Origin: a virus | Virus record (IMG/VR): IMGVR_UViG_3300045988_180644 | Reading direction: 5' to 3' (one strand) | DNA length: 64,000 nt | Shown: positions 29,992 through 57,621 of the stretch, in pieces | Layout: each line of letters opens with the position of its first letter | How positions within the stretch are numbered: position 1 is the first letter of the stretch | Translations under genes and position numbers: made by a program | The notes under the pieces: generated by a model | What the model was told of the DNA's origin: nothing | Seen by the model: only the letters and a program-made list of their open reading frames with translations | The model's database searches: none

Positions 29992-31014
29992 TTATTTTAA
30001 ACTTTGTCTTAGTTTTTTTATATCAGCCTCTAAGGATAGTAAATAATTTTTAAATTCCTTTTTTTCATCATTATCAGCAAAGATGATTTTATCAGGTGTT
30101 AAATTTGTAGTTATTGTCTTAAATGTTCTCACTTTTTTTATGATTTCATTGCCAGTGTAATTTTTATCCTTATTCCCTTCAATTTCCATTTGTAAATCAA
30201 AAAGATATTTTGAGAATCCTTTTCTATCCATTTTGCTAAGAGCCTTCATGACTCTATCTTGTTCTGCATCAGTTAGCGAAGATATTAAATAAGCTTGATT
30301 AAAATTAATGAGTTCTTTTCTGAAGTATTCCTTAATGAGAGTATTATGTGCAAAGTATATTGCGTTAACTTTTTTGGCTTTTGCTAGTGAATATGAAAAA
30401 CCAAATCTTTTCATTTTATTAACAACATATTCAGCTTTATTAACTACACCTTCAAGTTTTGTGTAAACTCCATTTTCATATCCAAAAATATAGTCGTAAT
30501 GTATCATGAGCTTTTCAGCACTTAAGTTTCTAGACAGAAGGTTTGTATCATGATATACCTTTTCTATTTCCTTTTGTGTTGCCCCGCGTGGTACTACAAT
30601 GGCTGGTATCTTCGAAAACTTTCTTCTCTTGGCTTCATTTCTTTCTTCAATAGCTCTTTTATATAGATTATGAACAGCTCTAAATCTCTGAGACCCAGCT
30701 CTTATCTCGTATTTTCCCGTTTCATTTCCTTCTTCATCTACTTCTCTTATGACATTGATTGGCTGTAACACCCCTACTAACCAAATAGATTCCTGAAACT
30801 CCTCCATTTCTTCTGGGGTCTTATTTGGATATTCATTCTTTTTATTATCAACAATTTTATCTAAGGGGATGTATTGCATCTCATATTCTTCAAGTTCATC
30901 TAAAGTTTTTTTATCATTAGCTTCAAATGGTGTTTCAAATGAGTTCCCAAAAAAATCAATTGATTCAACTGGCTCCATGTCACCAACACTTAAACTTCTT
31001 TTATTCCTTGCCAT
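29992..31014 (-). CDS. parB: ParB/Spo0J-like partition protein
   Basis: LQPINVIRE...YEIRAGSQRFRAV resembles ParB N-terminal box; downstream of parA; perfect palindrome parS-like site just 3' of it. Confidence 0.65.
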   Translation of the reverse strand: MARNKRSLSVGDMEPVESIDFFGNSFETPFEANDKKTLDELEEYEMQYIPLDKIVDNKKNEYPNKTPEEMEEFQESIWLVGVLQPINVIREVDEEGNETGKYEIRAGSQRFRAVHNLYKRAIEERNEAKRRKFSKIPAIVVPRGATQKEIEKVYHDTNLLSRNLSAEKLMIHYDYIFGYENGVYTKLEGVVNKAEYVVNKMKRFGFSYSLAKAKKVNAIYFAHNTLIKEYFRKELINFNQAYLISSLTDAEQDRVMKALSKMDRKGFSKYLFDLQMEIEGNKDKNYTGNEIIKKVRTFKTITTNLTPDKIIFADNDEKKEFKNYLLSLEADIKKLRQSLK

Positions 31015-31017
31015 TTT

Positions 31018-32160
31018 CTATGCCTCCTTTTTCCCTTGCAAGAGCTTTGACACATATTCATCAACCATTAATAATTCTTCGGTAGATAAACCATCCATTT
31101 TATCTTCTACATGTCTCTGAGCTCTAATTCTTTCAGCCGCTTTTTGATTTTCCTCTGTTCTCTTATTAGCACTTACTATTCCTGCTAATAAATCCATTTC
31201 ATACTCAATTTTTTCTGCATCAAAATATTCTTTAACAAAATTTATGATACTTGTTCTATAATCATCTTTAACTTGTGAAGCTAAATAATCCCAAGTATTT
31301 GAATCAACAACTAATTGTTTATCTACAATTTTAGTATCAAAAACTTTAATACCTGCTACATCAGAAATACTATTATTAATTTCTTCAAGGACTATTCTAT
31401 CGTTACTTCTTACTCTTTTATATTTATTACATAAAATACCTTTAATCTCAAAATCTGGTATATACTTCTTTACACTTTCTACATTTCTTAAAACGGTATT
31501 TATTCCTTCAGCTGAATTCATATCCATAAAGGTAGGAATAATTAATTCTCTAGACGCAGCAATTCCATTAAGCGATAATACTCCTAAAGATGGAGGGCAG
31601 TCTATAAAGATAAAGTCATAATCGAAATACTCTTCAATTTGTTTTACAACTAATTGCAACATGATACGATTGTACTTTTTCCCTTCATCTGTTAGTATAT
31701 AATGTCTTTCTACATGATTGTCAGGAGTTTGACTCATAAAGGCTAGTTCAATAAAAGATGTATCTTGTCCGACTCCAGGAATGATATCACATCCAAAAGG
31801 AATATCATTATATATCCACTTCATTCCATTTCTTTCAGCTTTTGTATATGTTGGAGTTCTTTTTGAATTGCTTATATATTGTATAGGAGGTAACTTTCCC
31901 CATCTTTCGAAATAAGACACAAGATATGCCATCGTTGGAATTCCATGTTCTTTCCCAAATTCCAATGCACCCATTCGATTCGTGTTAATATTAAACATAC
32001 TCGTTAAAGAGTTCTGAGGGTCCCAATCTATCAGGAGAACCTTCTTATGAAAAACTGTCCCCATAATATTAGCAATATTTGCTGTCAATGTCGTTTTACC
32101 TATTCCACCTTTATTATTATAAATGAGTATGACATGTGTTTTATTTTTATTTGTTGACAT
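31018..32160 (-). CDS. parA: ParA/Soj-family partition ATPase (long C-terminal extension)
   Basis: deviant Walker A NNKGGIGKTT; start set to ATG (MSTNKNKTHVIL) with AAAGGAG RBS rather than tracker start 32292. Confidence 0.8.
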   Translation of the reverse strand: MSTNKNKTHVILIYNNKGGIGKTTLTANIANIMGTVFHKKVLLIDWDPQNSLTSMFNINTNRMGALEFGKEHGIPTMAYLVSYFERWGKLPPIQYISNSKRTPTYTKAERNGMKWIYNDIPFGCDIIPGVGQDTSFIELAFMSQTPDNHVERHYILTDEGKKYNRIMLQLVVKQIEEYFDYDFIFIDCPPSLGVLSLNGIAASRELIIPTFMDMNSAEGINTVLRNVESVKKYIPDFEIKGILCNKYKRVRSNDRIVLEEINNSISDVAGIKVFDTKIVDKQLVVDSNTWDYLASQVKDDYRTSIINFVKEYFDAEKIEYEMDLLAGIVSANKRTEENQKAAERIRAQRHVEDKMDGLSTEELLMVDEYVSKLLQGKKEA

Positions 32161-32308
32161 CCTGATTCTCCTTTCATATTCACACTTTATTATATTAAAA
32201 TTATATATTTTTTTCAACTTGTATTTACATTCCCTTGAATTTGTGCGTATCGTTTTCGCGGCCCCAAAATCTTTTGATTTTGCCAGGTTCACTTTTCATT
32301 TTAGATAA

Positions 32309-43001: not shown

Positions 43002-44624
43002 ATGGACAAATATTATAAATATGAAGACAAAATAGTCAATTCCTTTCTTTTTGTACCAAAGTTCTTGTTTTCTGACGAACGCTTTATGAAGTTAAGTGTC
43101 ACAGAGAAACTGATTTATTCCTTATATCTACACAGATATACAATAAGCCAATATCATGACGAGATAGGACGATATATCATTTTTACTGATGATGATGTTG
43201 TTGACAAACTTTACATCACTTCAAGGACTTGTATCAGAGCTAGAAAAAAACTCGAAGAAGCAAATCTCATCAAAATCCAAAAAACTCTAACATATAACAA
43301 AATCTATCTTGTGAATGTACTGAAAGCTTCTGAAAGTGAACATTTCTTTAACGAAAATGATTTAGAGGGATTAAAATTTTATCAGTTCCCAAGAGAATTC
43401 TTTGAAAATACTTATAAAAACTTAACACTGAATGCCAAGATGGTCTATACAGTTTTTCTAGATACTTTAACTCTTAGTCAAATGAATTACTTTGTAGATT
43501 CTAACAAAAGGATTTATTTTCAGGAGAACATGGACATACAGATAAAAAAACTAAATCTAACAAAGCCGACAATACGTGAGGCAAGATACCTCTTGATGGT
43601 ATGTGGATTGTTGTTAGAGTATAAAACTTTCACTGAAGATATCAGATATTATCCATTAAAGCTGTCTCATTATACAGATAGAACTGCTGAATATAAGAAA
43701 TGTAAGACAGCGAAAGAGAAAAAAGCATTTATAGAGAAGACAACAAAACAAGACAAAGATGAGTTAATACTGAATCCATTAAAAATAGGTGTAAAACTTC
43801 AGGACTATAGAAAAGACGCAGGACTTACACAGACAAGACTAATCTCTTTATTAAGAGAAAGAAATGTAGATATTACTCAGCAGACTTATTCTGCGTATGA
43901 AAATGGAAAGTTACATATCAAAAAAGAACTATATGATATCTGTTTAGAGTGTATACAAGACGAAAAGAAAAAAATGTCTGAGTATACAATACCAAAAGAA
44001 AATATTGTCATAAATGACAACCCTAAAGAAAAAAATTGTCATGACATACAAGATAAAAACAAAGAAATGTCAGTAGAGGAAGAAAAATTAGTCACGAATG
44101 AAAAGAAAGAATTGACATCTCCTGAAAGAAAAGAAAGTCATATAAATTATACTTATACAAACAAAACAGAAAATAATTATAATGAAAAATTAATAGAATT
44201 AATTAATTATATTAATAACATTATAAATACTTCACATATTCTTTTAGAAGAAAAAGATTACTTAACTGCATGCTTTGATAAACTTCGTATATATAAACGA
44301 TTCTATCTCAATACTTCACAAGAACTATTCACAACAGAAAGATTATATGAAATCTTACAGAAGATGAATGAAAAAAATAAAGTTGAAGAAGTGTGTTTGA
44401 AGATTTTAGATAGAATTGAAACAAGTCACTATCAATTTAAAACACCAGATGCAGCCATCAATTGTTTTATTACTTTCTTGCTTAATGAACTAAAAGTAGA
44501 GGAAAAACAAGCTGATGATGTCCCAGAATGGTTTTCTAAAAAGAAATTTCAGTTTAATAGATTACCTGAACGAAAAATAGAAGTGTCAGATGAAATAAAA
44601 GACTATAAATGGTGGGAGGAATAA
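43002..44624 (+). CDS. rep: RepA_N-family replication initiator with duplicated N-domain and internal HTH
   Basis: YYKYEDKIVNSFLFVPKFLF...LSVTEKLIYSLYLHRY...IGRYIIFT matches Firmicutes RepA_N signature; second copy FYQFPREFF...LTLNAKMVYTVFLD; XRE-like HTH GLTQTRLISLL. Confidence 0.7.
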   Translation: MDKYYKYEDKIVNSFLFVPKFLFSDERFMKLSVTEKLIYSLYLHRYTISQYHDEIGRYIIFTDDDVVDKLYITSRTCIRARKKLEEANLIKIQKTLTYNKIYLVNVLKASESEHFFNENDLEGLKFYQFPREFFENTYKNLTLNAKMVYTVFLDTLTLSQMNYFVDSNKRIYFQENMDIQIKKLNLTKPTIREARYLLMVCGLLLEYKTFTEDIRYYPLKLSHYTDRTAEYKKCKTAKEKKAFIEKTTKQDKDELILNPLKIGVKLQDYRKDAGLTQTRLISLLRERNVDITQQTYSAYENGKLHIKKELYDICLECIQDEKKKMSEYTIPKENIVINDNPKEKNCHDIQDKNKEMSVEEEKLVTNEKKELTSPERKESHINYTYTNKTENNYNEKLIELINYINNIINTSHILLEEKDYLTACFDKLRIYKRFYLNTSQELFTTERLYEILQKMNEKNKVEEVCLKILDRIETSHYQFKTPDAAINCFITFLLNELKVEEKQADDVPEWFSKKKFQFNRLPERKIEVSDEIKDYKWWEE

Positions 44625-45681: not shown

Positions 45682-45710
45682 TTGACACAATATCATTTAT
45701 ATGATATAAT
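45682..45710 (+). promoter_or_regulatory. consensus sigma-70 promoter for the tRNA array
   Basis: TTGACA-17 nt-TATAAT ~110 nt upstream of first tRNA. Confidence 0.7.
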
Positions 45711-45820
45711 GTGTGTACAGTGATGAAAGGAGAGAACATATTAAGACGATTTGTGATAGACTTTTCAATATTTCTTAATTTGTTGCTTCTTGGTCACAAG
45801 AAGTTTTTATTTTGAAAAAC

Positions 45821-45903
45821 GTCCTCGTGATGGAACAGGTAGACATGCATGGCTTAGACCCATGTGCTTATGCGTAAGGGTTCGAATCCCTTCGAGGACA
45901 CCA
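45821..45903 (+). tRNA. tRNA-Leu (anticodon TAG), class II long variable arm
   Basis: hand-folded cloverleaf: acceptor GTCCTCG/CGAGGAC, anticodon stem CATGG/CCATG loop CTTAGAC, GGTTCGAATCC T-arm, CCA encoded. Confidence 0.7.
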
Positions 45904-45947
45904 ATATCACTCCAATGCTTGTAAAGAGTGAATATATGAAATTATAT

Positions 45948-46020
45948 GAACATCTAGCATAATGGAAATGCGTAGGGTTCAGCGCCCTTCATGATACTGG
46001 TTCAAGTCCAGTGGTGTTCA
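45948..46020 (+). tRNA. atypical tRNA-like gene (anticodon loop TTCAGCG; no encoded CCA)
   Basis: acceptor GAACATC/GATGTTC, D-arm TAGCATAATGGAAATGC, T-arm ACTGG-TTCAAGT-CCAGT; paralog of 46396..46468. Confidence 0.45.
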
Positions 46021-46070
46021 AATGCCAGATAAGAAATAAAGCTAAAACAGGGATAATCATATCCCTACAT

Positions 46071-46208
46071 GGTCCTTTAGCTCAGTAGGTAGAGTAGATG
46101 ACTGTTATACATCACTACATCAAATAAAGAAAGTTAAGTACGTGATGTATGTCAACACTTTGTGTTGATAAATCATGGTTACAGGTTCGAATCCTGTAGG
46201 GACCACCA
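46071..46208 (+). tRNA. tRNA-Asn-like (GTT) gene carrying ~62-nt insertion in variable region
   Basis: acceptor GGTCCTT/AGGGACC+A+CCA pairs across 138 nt; D-arm TAGCTCAGTAGGTAGAG; anticodon loop CTGTTAT; insert forms 9-bp hairpin ATACATCAC/GTGATGTAT. Confidence 0.45.
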
Positions 46209-46236
46209 AATATACATTTTTTGTGACAAACAATAT

Positions 46237-46313
46237 TGGTGAGTAGCGTAGTTGGTTAGCGCAATCGGCTGTTAACCGATGGGTCGTGGGTTCAAGTCCC
46301 ACCTCGCCAGCCA
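46237..46313 (+). tRNA. tRNA-Asn (GTT)
   Basis: acceptor TGGTGAG/CTCGCCA, anticodon stem ATCGG/CCGAT loop CTGTTAA, CCA encoded. Confidence 0.7.
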
Positions 46314-46314
46314 T

Positions 46315-46390
46315 GGCCTGTTCGTCTAAAGGTTAGGACACAACCCTTTCACGGTTGCAATGTTGAGTTCAAGTCTCACACAGGTCACCA
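46315..46390 (+). tRNA. tRNA-Glu (TTC)
   Basis: anticodon stem CAACC/GGTTG loop CTTTCAC; GTCTAAAGG D-loop. Confidence 0.65.
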
Positions 46391-46395
46391 AAAAT

Positions 46396-46468
46396 AGACA
46401 TCTAGCATGATGGTAATGCAAAGGGTTAATTACCCTTTATGATATCGGTTCAAGTCCGATGATGTTCA
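46396..46468 (+). tRNA. atypical tRNA-like gene (anticodon loop TTAATTA; A1-C72 mismatch; no CCA)
   Basis: paralog of 45948..46020: same acceptor/D-arm, T-arm ATCGG-TTCAAGT-CCGAT. Confidence 0.45.
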
Positions 46469-46528
46469 GAATCTAATAATTATATAGACTATGTATTATG
46501 TATTGTTATTAGGGCTTAGCCCTAAAGT

Positions 46529-46605
46529 GGACATTTAGCTCAGGTGGTTAGAGCCATCGCCTCATAAGCGATTGGTCGGAGGTTCAAGTCCTTCAATGTC
46601 CACCA
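46529..46605 (+). tRNA. tRNA-Met (CAT), elongator-type
   Basis: acceptor GGACATT/AATGTCC, anticodon stem ATCGC/GCGAT loop CTCATAA. Confidence 0.7.
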
Positions 46606-46615
46606 TATAAAGATG

Positions 46616-46689
46616 GTGAGGTTAGCTTAATGGTAAAGCACTGGACTGTGGCCCCAGTTATACGAGTTCGATTCTCGTACTTCACACCA
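46616..46689 (+). tRNA. tRNA-His (GTG)
   Basis: anticodon loop CTGTGGC; extra 5' G at 46615 (His G-1). Confidence 0.65.
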
Positions 46690-46694
46690 TATAT

Positions 46695-46771
46695 TGGAAA
46701 GTAGCTCAGTTTGGTAGGGCGCACGCTTTGGGAGCGTGAGGGCATGGGTTCAAATCCCGTCTTTCCAGCCA
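46695..46771 (+). tRNA. tRNA-Pro (TGG)
   Basis: acceptor TGGAAAG/CTTTCCA, anticodon stem CACGC/GCGTG loop TTTGGGA. Confidence 0.7.
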
Positions 46772-46776
46772 TATAT

Positions 46777-46853
46777 GCCACCATAGCACAACTGGCAGTG
46801 CAACTGACTTGTAATCAGGAGGTTGGAGGTTCGATTCCTTCTGGTGGCACCAT
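46777..46853 (+). tRNA. tRNA-Thr (TGT)
   Basis: acceptor GCCACCA/TGGTGGC, anticodon loop CTTGTAA. Confidence 0.7.
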
Positions 46854-46857
46854 ATTT

Positions 46858-46944
46858 GGAGAGGTATGCCTAGTGGCGATGGCACCTGACTGTAAATCAG
46901 GCACGTTAGAAACACCGTAGGTTCGACTCCTACTCTCTCCACCA
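46858..46944 (+). tRNA. tRNA-Tyr (GTA), long variable arm
   Basis: anticodon stem CCTGA/TCAGG loop CTGTAAA. Confidence 0.7.
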
Positions 46945-46952
46945 TTTCAAAT

Positions 46953-47041
46953 GCCCAAATGGTGAAATCAGGTAGACACACTGGACTTAAAATCCAGAGG
47001 AAAATAATTCCGTGCCAGTTCGAGTCTGGCTTTGGGTACCA
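46953..47041 (+). tRNA. tRNA-Leu (TAA), long variable arm
   Basis: anticodon stem CTGGA/TCCAG loop CTTAAAA. Confidence 0.7.
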
Positions 47042-47047
47042 TATTTT

Positions 47048-47122
47048 GCGGGTGTGATTCAACGGCTAGAATGTCAGCCTTCCAAGCTGAATACGTGGGT
47101 TCGATTCCCATCACCCGCTCCA
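47048..47122 (+). tRNA. tRNA-Gly (TCC)
   Basis: acceptor GCGGGTG/CACCCGC, anticodon stem TCAGC/GCTGA loop CTTCCAA. Confidence 0.7.
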
Positions 47123-47127
47123 TAAAT

Positions 47128-47217
47128 GGAAAGTAAATCCAAGAGGTTTTGGAACACGCCTGCTAAGCGTTGTGTGGGTATGACACCCATGAGTTTCGAT
47201 TACTCTGCTTTCCGCCA
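47128..47217 (+). tRNA. tRNA-Ser (GCT), long variable arm
   Basis: anticodon loop CTGCTAA; 90 nt. Confidence 0.65.
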
Positions 47218-47220
47218 TAT

Positions 47221-47296
47221 ACGTCCTTAGCTCAGAGGAAAGAGCACGCGCCTTCTAAGCGTGATGTCAAAGGTTCGACTCCTTTAGGGCGTACCA
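47221..47296 (+). tRNA. tRNA-Arg (TCT)
   Basis: anticodon stem CGCGC/GCGTG loop CTTCTAA. Confidence 0.65.
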
Positions 47297-47305
47297 ATTC
47301 AATAT

Positions 47306-47382
47306 CGCGGGGTAGAGCAGTTTGGTAGCTCGTCGGGCTCATTCCCCGAAGGTCGCAAGTTCAAATCTTGCCCCCGCAACCA
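47306..47382 (+). tRNA. initiator tRNA-fMet (CAT)
   Basis: C1xA72 mismatch, three G-C pairs in anticodon stem (TCGGG/CCCGA), loop CTCATTC. Confidence 0.7.
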
Positions 47383-47384
47383 AT

Positions 47385-47459
47385 GGTGCATTCGTATAAT
47401 GGTTAGTATGCTTGACTGTCTATCATGAGATAGGGGTTCGATTCCCCTATGCACCGCCA
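47385..47459 (+). tRNA. tRNA, probably Asp (GTC); anticodon arm imperfect
   Basis: acceptor GGTGCAT/ATGCACC, T-arm AGGGG-TTCGATT-CCCCT; loop CTGTCTA. Confidence 0.5.
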
Positions 47460-47465
47460 AAAAAC

Positions 47466-47550
47466 GCCGAATGTCCGGGTGGTGAGGAAGGAATCTTGAA
47501 AACTCTGGGCGGGCAACCGCTTGCAGGTTCGAATCCTGTGTTCGGCGCCA
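47466..47550 (+). tRNA. tRNA-Ser (TGA), long variable arm
   Basis: loop CTTGAAA; 85 nt. Confidence 0.55.
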
Positions 47551-47551
47551 C

Positions 47552-47627
47552 GGTTTCGTAGCTCAATAGGTAGAGCGCGTGGCCGAAGACCACGGCAGTA
47601 TTGGTTCAATTCCAGTCGAAACCACCA
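47552..47627 (+). tRNA. tRNA-Phe (GAA)
   Basis: anticodon stem CGTGG/CCACG loop CCGAAGA. Confidence 0.7.
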
Positions 47628-47632
47628 TAAAT

Positions 47633-47711
47633 GGGAAATGGGACTGCTTGGAGTGGTCATCTGTTTTGCACACAGAACATCAGATGGATTCGAATCCCAT
47701 ATTTTCCACCA
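47633..47711 (+). tRNA. tRNA-Ala (TGC)
   Basis: anticodon stem TCTGT/ACAGA loop TTTGCAC. Confidence 0.6.
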
Positions 47712-47718
47712 AAAATCT

Positions 47719-47793
47719 AGGAGCGTAGCACAAAGGTGAGTGTACACGACCGATAATCGTGCGATGTAAGTTCGAGTCTTGCCGTTCCTACCA
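47719..47793 (+). tRNA. tRNA-Ile (GAT)
   Basis: anticodon stem CACGA/TCGTG loop CCGATAA. Confidence 0.7.
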
Positions 47794-47800
47794 TTTATAT

Positions 47801-47874
47801 CATCTGTAGCTTATATGGTAAAGCCACAGCCGTTAGTGCTGGGGAAGTTTGGTTCGACTCCAGACCGGATGCCA
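47801..47874 (+). tRNA. atypical tRNA-like gene; anticodon loop CGTTAGT (would read TTA = ochre UAA if functional)
   Basis: T-arm TTTGG-TTCGACT-CCAGA, acceptor CATCTGT/CCGGATG with one mismatch; position-33 G. Confidence 0.35.
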
Positions 47875-48283
47875 GAGTTAAGGATTCTCTGAGAAAAATC
47901 TATATTGGAAAGGACCACGGTGAGGAACTGTAAGCTTTTTTGCGACACTATTCCAAAACCGAAAGCATCTAGCTAATGCCTTGTTGGTCTGAGTTTCAAG
48001 TGCGAGGTTTGGGGCGACTTGAATAAAAATAGTATGGGAATAAAAAATCTGACGACAGCCGGATTGACAATATATTTCCGTCCTGTATAGGTAAAAGTGG
48101 TTTGATGTGAACCGTCAAAAGAAAAAACATCGCTGTCAAATACCGAACAAAGGATAAGAGTAGGTAAAAGACAAACCAGAATTCTTGAGGCTATTAACCT
48201 CTATTTGAATATCATTGAATAAGTTAATGGTCAACAGTCCATTGGGTAACTCCATAGGAGCGCTGTTAGGTCTTTTCTTTTAT

Positions 48284-48360
48284 AGCAGAATGGCGAAATT
48301 GGTAGACGCACAGGACTTTGACTCCTGCATTTGAAGGTTCGAATCCTTCTTCTGCTGCCA
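48284..48360 (+). tRNA. tRNA-Gln (TTG)
   Basis: acceptor AGCAGAA/TTCTGCT, anticodon stem CAGGA/TCCTG loop CTTTGAC, CCA encoded. Confidence 0.7.
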
Positions 48361-48375
48361 AAATACTCAAATAGG

Positions 48376-48969
48376 GTGATAGATTTGTCAACTTATTATG
48401 ATTATTATGTTTTTATTAAAAAGGATAATGAGTTTAAGTATGCTGGATACTATGATATCTCTGGCAAACCCCTTCCCATATATTATCATACCCGTAGCTT
48501 CTCATACGGTTTCTTAGATTATGGACAATACGTTAATGACCTAGATAAATATGGTATCCATTTACCAAACGAAGGTGATGAGGAAGATGAAGCCAGATTT
48601 GGTTACCTTTTCCAATTACCAGACATAGATTCCATTCCAGACAGAAGCCATAAAGAAGCTTATATATATCAAACTCTACAAAGAGATATGGAAATTAATC
48701 ATTTCGAATATGACATAGAAGAATATTTGGAAAATGATGAAGAATCTGTCGATGGGCATCCACTTGTTATCTGCAAGAGCGAATTTGATAGATTGTCATT
48801 AGATAAACAAAGGGAATATTTTTACTATCACTGGACTGATTATGAAGATATGTCCTACCATAGAAATATTCTATGTACCATCATCAATAACTGGATTAAT
48901 ATAAGACAATTCAAGGAATTCAGTGATGTAGATAGAAAAGACATTTATATTGTTGCCTTTGGAGGGTAG
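48376..48969 (+). CDS. hypothetical protein (start uncertain)
   Basis: tracker ORF begins inside tRNA-Gln; candidate GTG start VIDLSTYYDYY just after it. Confidence 0.4.
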   Translation: MIDLSTYYDYYVFIKKDNEFKYAGYYDISGKPLPIYYHTRSFSYGFLDYGQYVNDLDKYGIHLPNEGDEEDEARFGYLFQLPDIDSIPDRSHKEAYIYQTLQRDMEINHFEYDIEEYLENDEESVDGHPLVICKSEFDRLSLDKQREYFYYHWTDYEDMSYHRNILCTIINNWINIRQFKEFSDVDRKDIYIVAFGG

Positions 48970-48983
48970 GGGGGGTGATGTAA

Positions 48984-49712
48984 GTGCAATGTAAAATATA
49001 TAAACGCACTTGGTCGTTGAAAAGGAAGTATCAATCAGAAGCGAGTTGTTATTATCTTTTTGATATTGATTATCCTTTTCCTTATAAACCATCCTATTTA
49101 AAAGCTCACAATTATCCTCGATTTTGGTGGACAACAGAATGGAATCTTATCTGTGATGAATTCAATCCTGAAAAGTATGAAGATATGGAATGGTTTAGGA
49201 AGAATGTTGCAGGATGCTTTGTGTCTCCTAAAGCGCTTAAATATATTCCATTTGCCAAATCAGATGATGATTTCCCTGTCCATGAAATATATGAAATAGA
49301 AGTTGTACAATATAAGGTAGTCAATGAAATGAGCTATCCTATAGATATGAATAACTATATCAGTGATTATATTGAGGAAAATATTAGAAGGCGTAAGGAA
49401 ACAGCACAACATTTCGATATTGGTCGTTATTATCCATCTCTACGCTACTATTGGCGAAATCCTCAAACAACAAATGAAAAAAGACAGCAGTTATCTAAAG
49501 AGGAGAAAAGATACTATCAGGAAAACGGATGGCCTATCCAAGAACGTTCTAAAAGAAATGCAAGGAATTTGCCAGACCTGTTTGACGATAAATTCATCCA
49601 TGTTGATAAATGCTGGAAATCTCAGACTCGTCAGTCTCGACAATATTTTAGAAATAAAAGAGCCAAAAGAAAAAGAATTCATGGAGAGGAATATAGGAAT
49701 TTTGTGGGGTGA
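48984..49712 (+). CDS. hypothetical protein with basic C-terminus
   Basis: 242 aa; GTG start; RNKRAKRKRIH tail. Confidence 0.5.
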   Translation: MQCKIYKRTWSLKRKYQSEASCYYLFDIDYPFPYKPSYLKAHNYPRFWWTTEWNLICDEFNPEKYEDMEWFRKNVAGCFVSPKALKYIPFAKSDDDFPVHEIYEIEVVQYKVVNEMSYPIDMNNYISDYIEENIRRRKETAQHFDIGRYYPSLRYYWRNPQTTNEKRQQLSKEEKRYYQENGWPIQERSKRNARNLPDLFDDKFIHVDKCWKSQTRQSRQYFRNKRAKRKRIHGEEYRNFVG

Positions 49713-50011
49713 TATTCTTGTCATATACTCAAAAACGTCATTCAAAAGAAGATATTCGACATGAAGCATGTGTTCATATCAAAAGAAAAGAAAAAATATT
49801 AAAGAATGTTTATGATGCGGGCAATGGTGAATGTAAAAACAATGAAAAACTTGGCTCTTACTACGGATACACGAAAGGAAAGTCGCACCGTCTTTCAAAA
49901 GGCAAAATTCATTGCTCCTGTCCAATGTGTAGAGAAAAGACGAAGGAAAGAGGATGGAAACACGCTGATGAAGTCAATATGATGAAAGGACTTGAAGATG
50001 AGAGAGAATAG
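49709..50011 (+). CDS. small basic CxC...CxxC protein (paralog of 51856..52113)
   Basis: SHRLSKGKIHCSCPMCREKTKERGW vs THRLSDAKIHKSCPLLQRKTNKLGY. Confidence 0.5.
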   Translation: MIFLSYTQKRHSKEDIRHEACVHIKRKEKILKNVYDAGNGECKNNEKLGSYYGYTKGKSHRLSKGKIHCSCPMCREKTKERGWKHADEVNMMKGLEDERE

Positions 50012-50134
50012 CCAATGTGAATGATGGATAATTCTAGAAAAAATCCGTCAAGACTCTACTCCTATTGAGGATGGGAAAAACTCAAGCTGAAAGATGCACC
50101 AATAACCAAGTATAAGAGGAAGGCTGTTTTATAT

Positions 50135-50209
50135 CTGTCTGTGGTCCAAAGGATACGATACAGAGCTACGGACTCTGTGATGATGGTTCGATTCCATCCA
50201 GACAGGCCA
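50135..50209 (+). tRNA. tRNA-Arg (ACG)
   Basis: acceptor CTGTCTG/CAGACAG, anticodon stem CAGAG/CTCTG loop CTACGGA. Confidence 0.65.
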
Positions 50210-50221
50210 AGAGGTAGAAAG

Positions 50222-50833
50222 ATGATAAGAGATTTTGTTTATCAGAGACTTGAATCTATGATAAACACTGTACCAACAGAACATTCTCAATCTCTTAATC
50301 AATATGCGAAAGATTTTATAAAAGGAATACAAGAGAAATGTGATGTCACAATGTCACATGTGTTTATCGAAAATTTCCCTATGATAGTTACTATTCATGA
50401 TATAGGGAAAAAGCATATTCCAGATTATATTTTAGAAAAAACAACTCAGTTGACGGATGATGAATATGAATGTGTGAAACATCATTGCATTTTAGGATAT
50501 GAAGACTTGCAAAAAGCTTTCAACAACATACCTCTGAATGAAGAAGAAAGGGAGTTGATAGAATTATGCAAGGAATCATGTTTATATCATCACGAAAGAC
50601 TTGATGGGAGCGGATATCCTTATGGTTATAAGCAAATCCCTCTTATCGCTCAGATGGTAGGAATTCTTGATAGTTTTGATGCTATGACTGTAAACAGATG
50701 CTATAAGAAAGCCATGAGCAAAGAAGAAGCTATCAAAAAACTTATTCAATCAGACAAATATAATGAGGAATTTATTTATGTATTATCGGAGGTGATAGAA
50801 AATGAAAATGAAATTAGAAATTCAGACAAATGA
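50222..50833 (+). CDS. HD-GYP domain phosphohydrolase (cyclic-dinucleotide phosphodiesterase family)
   Basis: HDIGK...HHCILGYED...HHERLDGSGYPYGY signature; start moved past tRNA-Arg to ATG (MIRDFVYQ) with AGAGGTAGAAAG RBS. Confidence 0.75.
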   Translation: MIRDFVYQRLESMINTVPTEHSQSLNQYAKDFIKGIQEKCDVTMSHVFIENFPMIVTIHDIGKKHIPDYILEKTTQLTDDEYECVKHHCILGYEDLQKAFNNIPLNEEERELIELCKESCLYHHERLDGSGYPYGYKQIPLIAQMVGILDSFDAMTVNRCYKKAMSKEEAIKKLIQSDKYNEEFIYVLSEVIENENEIRNSDK

Positions 50834-51008
50834 ATTGAATGTAACATATGAAGAATTAGTCAATCATGTTAAAGACTCTTTAAAAATGAAGAATGTCCCT
50901 TTAACAAAAGTGAAAGATGTAAAAGCATATTATGTTCCTAACACAAAAGTTTTGTATTACACAGCCATGTATAATGGTGAAGAAATCAAAGGAGAAAAAT
51001 ACTTGTAG
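50802..51008 (+). CDS. hypothetical protein
   Basis: 68 aa ORF overlapping HD-GYP 3' end. Confidence 0.4.
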   Translation: MKMKLEIQTNELNVTYEELVNHVKDSLKMKNVPLTKVKDVKAYYVPNTKVLYYTAMYNGEEIKGEKYL

Positions 51009-51009
51009 T

Positions 51010-51450
51010 TTTATACTTACAGTTTTCTCTTTATGCCAGCATTGCGATGAAACCTCCTCGTGGTTGCTGGTGGGTCGCGCTAATATCATCACAAGAAACA
51101 GACATATGGCTGAAAATCCTTTCAACGGGATAAGGCACACTTGCTTCATGGTGGGTGGAATTCCCATTACAGAAACTCGATTGAGATATAACATAAAGTG
51201 GTTCCAAGATGAACAATGCCGTTTGTAAATTGGCTGTGCGGACAAGGCTTTCCTATCCGGGTAACAAGGAAAGGGAAATCCTTCTGGTGATGCAAAGGTC
51301 GAGGCACAGGCTCCATGGTAGAAAAATCCAGAGAAGAAAAACATATGGTGATATATTCTGTAGTTGATACCATGGTTGAAGGTTACAGAGTCCTTTTTTA
51401 ATGCAATGAAAGCAAACGAGGAGCAGCATGTTGAGGTATGTACGTCTGTT
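51010..51450. ncRNA. ORF-free, GC-elevated ~440 nt block immediately upstream of tRNA-Gln: candidate structured RNA
   Basis: only overlapping low-complexity ORFs on both strands (50901..51539 etc.); GC-rich relative to flanks. Confidence 0.3.
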
Positions 51451-51453
51451 TGT

Positions 51454-51528
51454 ATCGGGATAGCATAATGGTAATGCGCATGGCTCTGAACCATGTCAGT
51501 GGAGGTTCGAATCCTTCTCCCGATGCCA
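51454..51528 (+). tRNA. tRNA-Gln (CTG)
   Basis: acceptor ATCGGGA/TCCCGAT, anticodon stem CATGG/CCATG loop CTCTGAA. Confidence 0.65.
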
Positions 51529-51683
51529 AAATAATGCAAATGACCTAAATCATGATAAAATGATAGTGGTAATCCTAATATCAGGAGCCACTATAATAGA
51601 AGATGGTAGCAGGGAACTATCATCTTCACTATTACATTAAAAAAAAGGAGAAAGATGATAGAAAACCACTATCATCTTCAAAT

Positions 51684-51758
51684 ATCTCCATAGTTTAGTT
51701 GGTAGAACGTCGGTCTCCAAAACCGAAAGCAGATGTTCGAGTCGTCTTGGAGGTGCCA
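51684..51758 (+). tRNA. tRNA-Trp (CCA)
   Basis: acceptor ATCTCCA/TGGAGGT, anticodon stem TCGGT/ACCGA loop CTCCAAA. Confidence 0.65.
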
Positions 51759-51759
51759 T

Positions 51760-51833
51760 GGTTTCTTGGCAGATTGGTTATGCGCAGGACTGCAACTCCT
51801 GTCAAGCTGGTTCGATTCCAGCAGAAATCTCCA
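51760..51833 (+). tRNA. tRNA-Cys (GCA)
   Basis: anticodon stem CAGGA/TCCTG loop CTGCAAC, T-arm GCTGG-TTCGATT-CCAGC. Confidence 0.65.
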
Positions 51834-56727: not shown

Positions 56728-57621
56728 ATGGCCAATAAAAGCTTTATTATTAATAAATTAAAAGAAAGATTAGCATGGATGAAGGAAAATACTGACTATA
56801 ATGTGGCATTTATCTGTCTTCAGGGAAGCCAAAATTATGCTATGGATACAAAAAAAAGTGATGTTGACGTTAAGTGCTTTATTGTTCCTACGCTAAAGGA
56901 CATGGTAAGCAATAAACAACCAATCAGCAAAATTTATACTATGGATGATAACAGCATCATTGATGTTAAAGATATAAGACTGTTACCTTCATTGCTACAT
57001 AAATGCAATCCATCTTATCTTGAACTTTTATATTCTGATTATTTTTTAACAAACAATTCTTATCATCGCGTACCGACTTTAAGATTGAAAAAACAGTTAA
57101 AGAAAGTTCGTCATGATATTTGCAATAGAGATGTGATGCGTTTTATGAAATGTTTAAAAGGGAATATTCATGATAGGCGTAAACATATGGAAAAAGAAAC
57201 AGAAACGACAGCTAAGGACATTGAAATCTATGGATATGTTCCTAAAGACTTTCATCATTTATTGAGATATACTTACATGATTGAAGAAATCAATAGACTT
57301 GGTAAAATCAAGTTTGAGTCATTAATGTCTCTTGATTTTTTAACAAAGCCGAAATTCAATGAATTAAAGCTCTACAAGACAAATCCAGTTTCAAAAGTGG
57401 AAGCCATGAGATTAGCAGATATGTATGTCAATAAAGCGGATAGAATTGTAGAAGAATTTGAAGCAAACTATAGTGGCAATATTAATGATGAAATTGATGA
57501 AAAAGTGAAACATTATGTCAATGAGTATGTAGAGTTCTGTATTGAACGTGATGTGATTACAGAATTCGTTGACAAGGTTCAACAAAAGAAATTAAAAGAA
57601 GTAGAAAGAGAAAGGAGCTAA
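56728..57621 (+). CDS. nucleotidyltransferase-domain protein (Pol-beta superfamily, ANT(6)/Lnu-like size)
   Basis: FICLQGSQNYAMDTKKSDVDVKCFIV = GS...D.D NTase motif; GGAGG RBS. Confidence 0.6.
   Translation: MANKSFIINKLKERLAWMKENTDYNVAFICLQGSQNYAMDTKKSDVDVKCFIVPTLKDMVSNKQPISKIYTMDDNSIIDVKDIRLLPSLLHKCNPSYLELLYSDYFLTNNSYHRVPTLRLKKQLKKVRHDICNRDVMRFMKCLKGNIHDRRKHMEKETETTAKDIEIYGYVPKDFHHLLRYTYMIEEINRLGKIKFESLMSLDFLTKPKFNELKLYKTNPVSKVEAMRLADMYVNKADRIVEEFEANYSGNINDEIDEKVKHYVNEYVEFCIERDVITEFVDKVQQKKLKEVERERS

What the first reader, a model, noticed from the sequence alone, without database searches (positions are those of the whole stretch)
46071..46208. tRNA-Asn-like gene with a ~62-nt insertion forming a long hairpin in the variable region
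The acceptor stem (GGTCCTT/AGGGACC) pairs only across a 138-nt span. The D-arm and anticodon arm (loop CTGTTAT) are tRNA-Asn-like and the T-arm is canonical. Between the anticodon arm and the T-arm, however, there is a ~62-nt insert containing a 9-bp perfect inverted repeat (ATACATCAC/GTGATGTAT). That is too short for a group I intron and not in the canonical intron position. A normal tRNA-Asn(GTT) follows 30 nt later, so this may be a disrupted duplicate, a tRNA carrying a mobile mini-insertion, or a tRNA-derived regulatory RNA.
Basis: seen in the sequence. Interest (0 to 1): 0.55.

Follow-up and report, generated by a model that had tools for sequence, protein, structure and literature searches.

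The report
Oversized chimeric tRNA-Asn-like phage gene
A real but abnormal 138-base tRNA-like gene sits in a phage tRNA cluster: it is a hybrid of two tRNA types carrying about 60 extra bases that fold into two hairpins, and it resembles the unexplained "introns" already reported in other phage tRNAs.

Summary
Positions 46071-46208 are one oversized tRNA-like gene: Rfam tRNA scores 51.3 bits against a threshold of 29. Default ARAGORN misses it. It has anticodon GUU, an encoded CCA end and a two-hairpin insert that folds far better than shuffled sequence (z = -3.75).

The interpretation needs revising.
- The gene is not a copy of the neighbouring tRNA-Asn. It is a chimera. Its acceptor stem and T arm match the tRNA-Val(UAC) in the same slot of a related element. 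Its D and anticodon arms match a tRNA-Asn type found in over 120 viral contigs.
- The extra DNA lies at the 3' junction of the swapped segment, between diverged direct repeats of the anticodon-stem 3' strand.
- The repeats allow the insert to be read either at the variable region (43/44) or at the canonical intron site (37/38).
- No group I core, bulge-helix-bulge motif, second copy or donor sequence was found, and no RNA ligase was seen in the window.
- As transcribed, hairpin 1 sequesters the anticodon-stem strand, so a normal anticodon arm forms in only 2-3% of the predicted ensemble.

Fourteen contigs (eight haplotypes) carry the gene, but their variation is too small to prove selection.

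The most likely product is an unspliced, processed tRNA-like RNA. Splicing is not excluded. The closest precedents are the Lak megaphage tRNA "introns" and T4 species 1 RNA.

The parts
45682..45710 (+). Consensus sigma-70-type promoter-like site (TTGACA-17-TG-TATAAT) upstream of the co-oriented tRNA array. It is context for transcription of the element.
   Evidence: 12 of 12 matches, with TG before the second hexamer.
46047..46068 (+). Conserved hairpin immediately 5' of the element. The stem is kept and the loop varies among relatives.
46071..46077 (+). Acceptor stem, 5' strand (GGTCCTT). L018 has GGTTCCT, identical to the tRNA-Val of L010.
46080..46095 (+). D arm (GCTC AGTAGGTA GAGT), with G18 and G19.
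46097..46106 (+). Anticodon-stem 5' strand (GATGA) plus C32, U33 and anticodon GTT (46104-46106). This segment matches the widespread phage tRNA-Asn arm.
46108..46122 (+). Two tandem copies of TACATCA (46108-46114 and 46116-46122). These are the proximal copies of the anticodon-stem 3' strand. The first gives the 4-bp 'variable-region' reading used by the Rfam model.
46107..46150 (+). Hairpin 1. Arms are 46107-46118 and 46138-46150 (12 bp, one bulge), with a 19-nt A-rich loop. It sequesters A37 and the proximal anticodon-stem 3' strand.
46151..46169 (+). Hairpin 2 (GTCAACAC TTT GTGTTGAT), with pairing probability about 0.99. Two pair-preserving one-sided changes occur among haplotypes.
46171..46176 (+). 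Distal copy (AATCAT) of A38 plus the anticodon-stem 3' strand. It gives the 37/38 'intron' reading (AUGA/UCAU).
46177..46180 (+). Short junction or variable segment: GGTT here, AGCTT in most haplotypes. It is the most variable part and includes a 1-nt indel.
46181..46197 (+). T arm (ACAGG TTCGAAT CCTGT).
46198..46208 (+). Acceptor 3' strand (AGGGACC), discriminator A73 and encoded CCA.
46237..46313 (+). Ordinary tRNA-Asn(GTT) with G73. It is a neighbour, not the parent of the element.

Best explanation
The interval encodes one oversized, chimeric tRNA-like RNA. It is not a duplicated tRNA-Asn, and it does not belong to any known self-splicing intron class.

Origin (inferred from comparison). 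Single-tRNA cassettes recombine freely in this family of large, low-GC, phage-like elements. In the slot that holds tRNA-Val(UAC) in a relative, the D arm and anticodon arm were replaced by those of a common phage tRNA-Asn(GUU). The Val-type acceptor stem and T arm were kept. The 3' junction of the exchange kept about 56-64 extra nucleotides. These lie between diverged direct repeats of the anticodon-stem 3' strand and fold into two hairpins.

Mechanism (inferred, not shown). The gene is transcribed with the array from the consensus promoter at 45682-45710. It is probably released by the ordinary tRNA end-processing enzymes, because the acceptor stem, D arm, T arm and encoded CCA are intact. 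The insert most likely stays in the RNA. I found no ribozyme core, no bulge-helix-bulge motif and no ligase or endonuclease gene in the window.

In the unspliced RNA, hairpin 1 captures A37 and the proximal CAUC strand. GUU then lies in a single-stranded linker rather than in a normal anticodon arm. The discriminator is A73, not the G73 seen in every intact tRNA-Asn examined here. I therefore expect a stable 138-nt tRNA-like RNA that decodes poorly or not at all. That would be comparable in kind to T4 species 1 RNA. Efficient decoding would require an unidentified activity to remove the insert.
For: A single tRNA-like gene:
- Rfam tRNA scores 51.3 bits over 46071-46205.
- All in-silico deletions of the insert give an ARAGORN-callable tRNA-Asn.

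Chimera:
- L010 has an ordinary 76-nt tRNA-Val(tac) between the same flanks.
- The L018 allele has the same 5' acceptor strand, GGTTCCT, as that Val gene.
- T arm plus acceptor 3' strand match the Val gene at 25 of 29 positions.
- The 5' half is closest to the tRNA-Asn of relatives L015 (31/35) and L016 (32/36). The rejoined anticodon arm matches L015 tRNA-Asn at 17 of 18.
- That arm, AGATGACTGTTAATCATC, occurs uninterrupted in more than 120 viral contigs.
- Cassette mosaicism of the arrays is visible directly.

Insert not self-removing and not mobile:
- No Rfam family other than tRNA hits the interval at E<=10, apart from a weak YrlA match attributable to its tRNA-like features.
- The insert is unique in the window and has no donor in any fetched locus.
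- No exact matches were found in the genome or viral collections.
- No RNA ligase or splicing endonuclease was recognised among the window's ORFs scanned with Pfam or PHROGs.

Fold:
- Hairpin 2 has pairing probability about 0.99. Hairpin 1 has 0.39 in the window haplotype and 0.94 in the majority haplotype.
- The proximal anticodon stem has 0.02-0.03 and the distal one 0.04-0.16.

Retention: the element is present in 14 contigs and 8 haplotypes despite cassette swaps around it. Six of seven substitutions at paired sites keep pairing.
Against: - Nothing shows that the RNA is made, processed or stable.
- Diversity is very low (98% mean column identity). There are no double compensatory changes.
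- By my own estimate, 6 of 7 pair-preserving transitions has p of about 0.09 under neutrality.
- The whole array, spacers included, is 93-100% identical among these contigs. Conservation of the insert therefore proves nothing.
- Against L025, the element differs at 6 of 138 positions. That is nearer the spacers (about 3%) than the ordinary tRNAs (about 1.6%). This is equally compatible with a decaying pseudogene.
- Nearest-neighbour folding ignores tRNA tertiary contacts and base modifications, which could favour the cloverleaf.
- Only 64 kb of an element of at least 144 kb was examined for splicing or repair enzymes. An RlaP-type 'RNA repair' nucleotidyltransferase is present at 56728-57621.
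- Large variable-loop insertions can be compatible with translation (engineered V-Spinach tRNA, PMC5397188). An active oversized tRNA is therefore not excluded.
Confidence: 0.42

Rival explanations
1. It is an intron-containing tRNA-Asn gene. A 64-nt non-group-I intervening sequence at position 37/38 is removed after transcription by an unidentified host or phage activity. The product is either religated or left as a two-piece tRNA, and gives a working tRNA(GUU) of about 74 nt. This would match what was suggested for the Lak megaphage tRNA 'introns'.
For: - Homology with uninterrupted phage tRNA-Asn places the break exactly at A37|A38 and restores the canonical loop CUGUUAA.
- The spliced sequence is called tRNA-Asn by ARAGORN at the default threshold.
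- The distal stem AUGA/UCAU is compatible with both hairpins at only 2.2 kcal/mol above the MFE.
- Hairpin 1 pairs with A37, loosely like the anticodon-intron helix of eukaryal and archaeal pre-tRNAs.
- Lak phage tRNAs carry 79-93-nt Rfam-negative inserts predicted at 37/38 (PMC6784885 Table S6).
- An RlaP RNA-repair-type nucleotidyltransferase lies 10 kb downstream.
Against: - By inspection there is no bulge-helix-bulge motif. The intron 3' end (UUGAUAA) is not complementary to positions 32-36.
- No ribozyme hit was found.
- No ligase or endonuclease was recognised in the window.
- The 3' exon is imperfect: position 27-43 is G.G or G.A, and the variable loop is only 3-4 nt. That loop also varies in length between close haplotypes.
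- The discriminator is A73, not G73.
- No insert-free allele with the same exons was found.
- Splicing has not been demonstrated for the Lak cases either.
Confidence: 0.2
2. It is a functional oversized tRNA. The proximal CAUC copy forms the anticodon stem. The two hairpins project as a giant extra arm from the 43/44 junction, and the RNA is charged and used on the ribosome for AAY codons.
For: - The Rfam model aligns it this way at 51.3 bits.
- The G27-C43 to G30-C40 pairs are Watson-Crick.
- In the majority haplotype, the 5 nt before the T stem (AGCUU) resemble a complete variable loop.
- Engineered tRNAs with 50-100-nt aptamers in the variable loop are stable, aminoacylated and active in E. 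coli translation (PMC5397188).
- Relatives L015 and L016 carry a 95-nt tRNA(UAU) with a 25-nt variable arm. Arm expansion is therefore tolerated in this phage family.
Against: - This stem forms in only 2-3% of the predicted ensemble, because the 12-bp hairpin 1 competes for the same strand.
- There is an A31.A39 mismatch.
- One haplotype group has C32 changed to A.
- A73 and G1-C72 are unlike the tRNA-Asn genes seen here. The best-matching uninterrupted IMG/VR genes have U1-A72 and G73; the window's own tRNA-Asn and those of L015 and L016 have G73.
- A normal tRNA-Asn(GUU) is already encoded 28 nt downstream.
Confidence: 0.13
3. It is a dead recombination scar (a pseudo-tRNA) with no function. 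It persists only because the array is young and recombines as blocks.
For: - Its substitution density against L025 (6/138) is nearer that of spacers than of tRNAs.
- Changes occur at normally constrained sites: A26G, C32A, and an indel in the variable segment.
- One haplotype has a stem-breaking G-to-A change in hairpin 1.
- Other degenerate tRNA-likes occur in the same array.
Against: - All tRNA arms and CCA are intact, and it scores 51 bits.
- Six of seven paired-site changes preserve pairing.
- It is retained in all 14 contigs of the clade, although whole cassettes of similar size are gained and lost nearby.
Confidence: 0.2
4. It is a miniature mobile element (MITE-like, or an intron remnant that has lost its endonuclease) inserted into a tRNA gene with a target-site duplication.
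For: Direct repeats (TACATCA ... AATCAT) bracket the extra DNA.
Against: - It is single-copy in the 64-kb window at up to 3 mismatches.
- Only chance-level short matches were found in the loci fetched up to that point.
- 18-24-nt exact probes found nothing in the viral or genome collections.
- The inverted repeats are internal hairpins, not terminal repeats.
Confidence: 0.04

Closest known systems
'Enigmatic' tRNA introns of Lak megaphages (Devoto et al. 2019, Nat Microbiol; PMC6784885)
   Same: - It is an oversized tRNA gene within a phage tRNA set.
- The insert is tens of nucleotides long: 79-93 nt in Lak and 56-64 nt here.
- The insert is predicted at anticodon-loop position 37/38 and has no Rfam match.
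- It is nearly invariant across samples, and the removal mechanism is unknown.
   Different: - The replicon is of a different kind: a low-GC element with RepA_N and ParAB from an unknown host, versus 540-kb Prevotella phages.
- The anticodon-stem 3' strand is duplicated here, so a variable-region reading is equally possible.
- The 3' exon is imperfect.
- The gene is a Val/Asn chimera.
- No insert-free allele with the same exons was found.
- The two Lak inserts I read (tRNA-Tyr and tRNA-Phe) contain a tRNA T-loop-like motif, and the paper reports that the tRNA-Thr intron may encode a tRNA. This insert has neither.
Bacteriophage T4 species 1 RNA (rnaC, 139 nt) in the T4 tRNA cluster
   Same: - It is an RNA gene of about 140 nt inside a phage tRNA array, co-oriented with it.
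- It has a tRNA-like T arm and paired termini.
- It is annotated as a small stable RNA, with no function given.
   Different: - rnaC is not recognised by the Rfam tRNA model. Its best hit is tRNA-Sec at 17.5 bits, E = 0.7.
- The element here scores 51.3 bits and has a full D arm and a GUU anticodon context.
- No sequence homology was sought beyond this.
- Stability of the present RNA is untested.
Bacterial tRNA genes with group I introns in the anticodon loop (cyanobacteria, Patescibacteria; PMC3984707, PMC13011429)
   Same: An insertion in or next to the anticodon loop of a bacterial-type tRNA gene makes standard tRNA finders miss the gene.
   Different: The insert is only about 60 nt and has no group I core. 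No Rfam group I hit appears at E<=10.
Class II tRNAs and engineered variable-loop fusions (V-Spinach tRNA, PMC5397188)
   Same: An extra helical domain emerges between the anticodon stem and the T stem. Engineered examples show that such RNAs can be stable and translationally active.
   Different: Natural class II variable arms, from established knowledge, form a single hairpin of about 10-24 nt. Here there are two hairpins totalling about 62 nt, and one of them competes with the anticodon stem.

Membership tests
tRNA (Rfam RF00005) | Covariance-model score at or above the gathering threshold (29 bits) | tested here: met
   51.3 bits over 46071-46205, covering model positions 1-71.
tRNA (Rfam RF00005) | Acceptor stem of 7 bp, D stem, T stem with T loop, and conserved U8, A14, G18G19 and U33 | tested here: met
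   Read from the alignment. Pairs are kept in all 8 haplotypes.
tRNA (Rfam RF00005) | A stable 5-bp anticodon stem with a 7-nt loop in the transcript, and a length of about 70-95 nt | tested here: not met
   The gene is 138 nt. Each reading gives 4 bp plus a mismatch. Ensemble probability is 0.02-0.03 for the proximal stem and 0.04-0.16 for the distal stem.
tRNA-Asn isoacceptor | Anticodon GUU in a CU-GUU-A context | tested here: met
   46102-46107 reads CTGTTA.
tRNA-Asn isoacceptor | Discriminator G73. From established knowledge this is an identity element for E. coli AsnRS. It is present in every intact tRNA-Asn seen here. | tested here: not met
   All 8 haplotypes have A73. G73 is present in the window's tRNA-Asn (46237-46313), in the tRNA-Asn of L015 and L016, and in the best-matching IMG/VR tRNA-Asn genes.
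tRNA-Asn isoacceptor | Whole-body similarity to tRNA-Asn genes | tested here: inconclusive
   The D and anticodon arms are Asn-like (31/35, 32/36, 17/18). The acceptor and T arm match the tRNA-Val of the same slot (25/29, and an identical 5' strand in L018).
Group I intron in a tRNA gene | Group I catalytic core (Rfam Intron_gpI) and a length of roughly 200 nt or more | tested here: not met
   No such hit at E<=10. The insert is 56-64 nt.
Archaeal/eukaryal-type tRNA intron | Position 37/38 | tested here: inconclusive
   The position is met when aligned to uninterrupted homologues. The duplicated strand also allows placement at 43/44.
Archaeal/eukaryal-type tRNA intron | Bulge-helix-bulge motif at the splice sites | tested here: not met
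   By inspection, the nucleotides preceding the 3' site (UUGAUAA) are not complementary to positions 32-36 (CUGUU). No 3-4-3 geometry is present.
Archaeal/eukaryal-type tRNA intron | Splicing endonuclease and RNA ligase available | tested here: inconclusive
   None was recognised among the window's ORFs that were scanned. The host and the remaining 80 kb or more of the element are unknown. Several ORFs of 300 aa or more have no family match.
Lak-type phage tRNA 'introns' | Oversized phage tRNA gene with an Rfam-negative insert of tens of nucleotides at the anticodon loop | tested here: met
   compared with PMC6784885 Table S6.
Lak-type phage tRNA 'introns' | Alleles with and without the insert that fix the excision point | tested here: not met
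   All 14 contigs with these exons carry the insert. The alternative allele at the slot is a different gene, tRNA-Val in L010.
Lak-type phage tRNA 'introns' | Actual removal of the insert from the RNA | not testable with these tools
   This needs RNA data. In what I read of the Lak paper, the excision points are predictions (tRNAscan) and alignment-based, with no splicing experiment described.
Class II (long variable arm) tRNA | Single variable-arm hairpin of about 10-24 nt between positions 44 and 48 | tested here: not met
   There are about 62 nt forming two hairpins.
T4 species 1-like stable tRNA-like RNA | RNA of about 140 nt inside a phage tRNA cluster, with a tRNA-like T arm and termini | tested here: met
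   138 nt here versus 139 nt for rnaC.
T4 species 1-like stable tRNA-like RNA | Accumulates as a stable processed RNA | not testable with these tools
   No expression data are available.
Miniature mobile element | Multiple dispersed copies | tested here: not met
   The JGI metagenome collection was not scanned for the insert itself.

The most novel reading that the evidence does not exclude
The about-64-nt segment is a genuine intervening sequence of a new, non-group-I, non-BHB kind in a bacterial-virus tRNA. It would be removed after transcription by a host or phage nuclease, with or without religation, so that the Val/Asn chimera becomes a working tRNA(GUU). A related possibility concerns the altered loop-stem sequence, U36-A-U-A-C in place of the U36-A-A-U-C of its uninterrupted relatives. 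That motif is cleaved in tRNA-Asn, tRNA-Lys and tRNA-Thr by the PARIS effector AriB (PMC12409363). The change, together with the extra arm, might make the RNA resistant to, or a decoy for, a tRNA-targeting defence nuclease.
Probability: 0.2. Interest if true: 0.8.

Novelty: new variant of a known kind. Interest (0 to 1): 0.42.

Why it matters
Phage tRNA arrays are now seen as tools against host tRNA-cleaving defences as well as for codon supply. Insert-bearing phage tRNAs were reported in 2019, and I found no explanation for them in the literature I searched.

This case is compact and recurs in many metagenomes. It also has a clear evolutionary history: a cassette swap between a tRNA-Val and a tRNA-Asn, with junction repeats. 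It shows one way such inserts can arise. It also shows that the 'intron position' inferred by gene finders can be an artefact of duplicated stem strands.

If the insert were shown to be removed, that would reveal a tRNA-processing activity not known in bacteria or their viruses. If it is not removed, the element joins T4 species 1 RNA as an example of stable tRNA-like RNAs of unknown role.

In practice, standard annotation (default ARAGORN) misses the gene. This phage lineage would therefore be annotated as having one tRNA fewer than it encodes.

Tried and rejected
- **Two ordinary tRNAs, or a tRNA inside the insert.** Rejected. No tool calls a second tRNA in 46071-46208.
- **Hidden tRNA-Val(UAC).** The array lacks tRNA-Val and the slot holds Val in L010. 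Rejected. Both UAC triplets in the insert lack U33 and flanking stems (inspection).
- **Hairpin 2 as a tRNA-Lys(UUU) anticodon arm.** The array lacks tRNA-Lys. Rejected. The loop would be A-C-UUU-G-U, with C33 and G37, and it is predicted to close to 3 nt.
- **Known ribozymes or other RNA families.** None found at E<=10. The weak YrlA hits (16-21 bits against a gathering score of 69) reflect tRNA-likeness only.
- **Internal promoter or terminator in the insert.** None predicted.
- **Donor of the insert.** blastn-short against the window and the loci fetched up to that point gave only chance-level 10-13-mers.
- **Wider searches that found nothing.**
  - Exact 38-nt and 18-24-nt probes in viral contigs and genome contigs.
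  - RepA_N protein or profile searches in viral contigs and genome contigs.
  - Megablast of the array against the phage collection, which matched only a generic tRNA.
- **Host.** It was not identified.
- **Covariation analysis.** Eight haplotypes gave no double compensatory changes and cannot discriminate between the alternative anticodon stems.
- **Conservation of the insert relative to spacers.** Uninformative, because the whole array is 93-100% identical among the contigs.
Full report
**Context**

The window is low in GC (about 30-38%). It carries phage-type replication and nucleotide-metabolism genes:
- a RecD/Dda-like helicase, RecJ and thymidylate kinase;
- a RepA_N initiator, ParA and ParB, a radical-SAM protein, an HD-domain protein and an RlaP nucleotidyltransferase.

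No structural gene falls in the 64 kb. Identical or near-identical DNA occurs on metagenome contigs of up to 143.8 kb. The nearest entries in the phage collection are only about 30% identical at protein level. No relative was found in species-representative genomes. I therefore call it a large phage-like element of unknown host.

From 45821 to 51833, ARAGORN finds 25 co-oriented tRNA genes. A perfect sigma-70 consensus promoter lies upstream at 45682-45710. The set lacks tRNA-Val and tRNA-Lys.

**Check of the observation**

There is also a second hairpin at 46151-46169.
- Default ARAGORN skips the interval. So does ARAGORN with intron search at the default threshold.
- At a relaxed threshold, ARAGORN reports tRNA-Asn(gtt) with a 43-nt intron after position 38 and a 24-nt variable arm.
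- The Rfam tRNA model matches 46071-46205 end to end at 51.3 bits (threshold 29). It places about 62 nt after position 44.
- The whole element and the insert alone both fold much better than shuffled sequence (z = -3.74 and -3.75; 0 of 200 shuffles).

The feature is real and is a single tRNA-like gene. It is not two genes.

**Where the insert sits**

Three parses exist, and all give anticodon GUU.
- Parse A (Rfam): anticodon stem GAUG/CAUC with an A31.A39 mismatch, and the insert at 43/44.
- Parse B (relaxed ARAGORN): the 43-nt intron described above.
- Parse C: stem AUGA/UCAU using a distal copy, with the insert of 64 nt at 37/38.

The ambiguity has a physical cause. The 3' strand of the anticodon stem is present three times: TACATCA at 46108-46114, TACATCA at 46116-46122, and AATCAT at 46171-46176.

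Constrained folding gives -36.9 kcal/mol for A, -34.2 for B and -37.9 for C, against an MFE of -40.1. In the MFE, hairpin 1 uses A37 and the proximal copy, and no anticodon stem forms.

In the Boltzmann ensemble:

| Element | Probability |
|---|---|
| Proximal anticodon stem | 0.02-0.03 |
| Distal anticodon stem | 0.04-0.16 |
| Hairpin 2 | about 0.99 |
| Hairpin 1 | 0.39 (window haplotype), 0.94 (majority haplotype) |

In-silico removal of the insert under any parse gives a sequence that ARAGORN calls tRNA-Asn at the default threshold.

**Relatives**

I used the neighbouring RepA_N protein and a 74-aa protein together with exact-protein look-ups. One metagenome scan used a conserved spacer next to the element.

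This recovered the element in 14 contigs that form 8 haplotypes. I also recovered more distant relatives: L010, with 68% RepA_N identity, and L015 and L016, with about 48%.

Three results matter.
1. In L010, the same slot between the same flanking sequences holds an ordinary 76-nt tRNA-Val(UAC).
   - Its acceptor 5' strand, GGTTCCT, is identical to that of the L018 allele of the element.
   - Its T arm and 3' acceptor strand match the element at 25 of 29 positions.
2. The element's 5' half is closest to the tRNA-Asn genes of L015 (31/35) and L016 (32/36).
   - The rejoined anticodon arm matches L015's tRNA-Asn at 17 of 18 positions.
   - That arm, AGATGACTGTTAATCATC, occurs uninterrupted in more than 120 IMG/VR contigs, in genes with G73.
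   - The best-matching of those genes also have U1-A72.
3. The adjacent normal tRNA-Asn (46237-46313) is not among the element's 14 best matches.

The arrays themselves are mosaics of swapped single-tRNA cassettes.

I infer that the element is a Val/Asn chimera produced by cassette recombination. The extra DNA sits at the 3' crossover, flanked by duplicated stem-strand sequence.

**What the insert is not**

- No Rfam family other than tRNA hits the interval at E<=10, apart from a weak YrlA match attributable to its tRNA-like features. It is therefore not a group I intron or a known ribozyme.
- By inspection there is no bulge-helix-bulge geometry.
- It is single-copy in the window.
- It has no donor in any fetched locus.
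- Exact probes did not find it in the viral or genome collections.
- No promoter or terminator is predicted inside it.
- No RNA ligase or splicing endonuclease was recognised among the ORFs I scanned. However, an RlaP 'RNA repair pathway' nucleotidyltransferase lies at 56728-57621, and several large ORFs have no family match.

**Evidence for constraint is weak**

The eight haplotypes are 98% identical and show 12 variable columns.
- Seven variable columns fall in paired positions. Six of them keep pairing through one-sided transitions: acceptor 4 and 6, D-stem 25, T-stem 49, and two in hairpin 2.
- One contig has a G-to-A change that breaks hairpin 1.
- There are no double compensatory changes.
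- By my estimate, about 54% of random transitions in this structure preserve pairing. Six of seven then has p of about 0.09.
- The whole array, spacers included, is 93-100% identical among these contigs, whereas the upstream protein gene is 82-86% identical. The near-invariance of the insert is therefore not evidence of selection.
- Against L025, the element differs at 6 of 138 positions. That is closer to the spacers than to the ordinary tRNAs.
- Changes at A26G, at C32A and in the variable segment (a substitution, a 1-nt indel and a change at the first T-stem pair) suggest relaxed constraint on decoding-related positions.

**Most likely mechanism**

- Shown: the gene has all the arms recognised by tRNA end-processing enzymes, and an encoded CCA. 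It lies in a co-oriented array behind a consensus promoter.
- Inferred: it is transcribed and released as an RNA of about 138 nt that retains the insert. Hairpin 1 out-competes the 4-bp anticodon stem.
- Taken with A73 and the non-Asn acceptor stem, the RNA is probably a poor decoder or a non-decoder.

My probabilities:

| Reading | Probability |
|---|---|
| Unspliced tRNA-like RNA | about 0.42 |
| Removal of the insert (splicing or excision) | about 0.20 |
| Functionless scar | about 0.20 |
| Active oversized tRNA | about 0.13 |
| Mobile element | about 0.04 |

The oversized-tRNA reading has an engineering precedent. tRNAs carrying aptamers in the variable loop work in E. coli (PMC5397188).

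**Comparison with known systems**

- The nearest precedent is the set of 'enigmatic' tRNA introns in Lak megaphages. Two that I read are 79 and 93 nt, predicted at position 37/38, and marked Rfam-negative. The paper reports that the introns are nearly invariant across cohorts (PMC6784885).
- T4 species 1 RNA (rnaC, 139 nt) is a second analogue. It is a stable RNA in the T4 tRNA cluster with only a T arm and termini that look like tRNA. The Rfam tRNA model does not recognise it.
- A quick ARAGORN -i pass over 1.08 Mb of unrelated phage loci produced 16 insert-bearing calls among about 930 tRNAs. Several look like oversized tRNA-likes with good acceptor and T arms, for example L075 5947-6077 at 131 nt. 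The general kind is therefore not rare.

What is particular here is the traceable chimeric origin, the duplicated stem strand that makes the insert position ambiguous, and the competition between the insert and the anticodon stem.

**Verdict**

- Novelty: a new variant of a known but unexplained kind.
- Interest is moderate (0.42). It would rise sharply if RNA data showed that the insert is removed.

Noticed in passing
window 45947-46021 and 46395-46469: Two paralogous odd tRNA-like genes share the same body and an 8-bp acceptor stem in ARAGORN's drawing. Their anticodon loops differ (called Leu-cag and Ile-aat). The L010, L011, L014 and L018 versions have an 8-nt loop, called tRNA-???(aatc). 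They score 45-47 bits with Rfam tRNA. The second copy and its spacer are absent from L009 and L010.
   Followed up: partly
window 47801-47873: ARAGORN calls a tRNA with anticodon TTA, which would read the UAA stop codon. Rfam does not list it at E<=10. The homologous position in L010 is called tRNA-???(ag). It may be a degenerate tRNA or a suppressor.
   Followed up: no
window 45682-45710 and 45785-45804: A perfect sigma-70 consensus promoter (TTGACA-17-TATAAT, with TG before the second hexamer) is followed by a terminator-like hairpin with a T-run. Both lie just upstream of the first tRNA of the array.
   Followed up: no
window 46047-46068: A hairpin lies immediately 5' of the element. Its stem is conserved and its loop varies among window, L010 and L018. 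It may be a processing or stability signal.
   Followed up: no
L015 12950-13044; L016 12904-12998: A 95-nt tRNA with anticodon UAU, discriminator A73 and a 25-nt class-II-like variable arm is the first gene of the array in more distant relatives. A long-arm tRNA reading an Ile codon is unusual and could indicate non-standard charging.
   Followed up: partly
L015 14188-14761; L016 13847-14421: Full-length ROOL RNA (Rfam RF03087, about 303 bits) is embedded in the tRNA arrays of the distant relatives. The window itself has none.
   Followed up: no
window 56728-57621, 50141-50833, 29992-32292, 43002-44624: The window encodes an RlaP 'RNA repair pathway' nucleotidyltransferase, an HD_5 domain protein inside the tRNA region, a ParA/ParB pair and a RepA_N initiator. 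Together these suggest a plasmid-like or phage-plasmid lifestyle and some RNA-repair capacity.
   Followed up: partly
window 45821-47130 versus L009, L010, L018, L025: The tRNA arrays are mosaics. Individual tRNA cassettes (Asn, Tyr, Met and the slot studied here) are swapped between otherwise 96-100% identical arrays. The upstream protein gene is only 82-86% identical.
   Followed up: partly
L075 5947-6077 (-), L042 3979-4079, L079 4388-4491: Other oversized tRNA-like genes (100-131 nt) with good acceptor and T arms but aberrant middles occur in unrelated IMG/VR phage tRNA arrays.
   Followed up: partly
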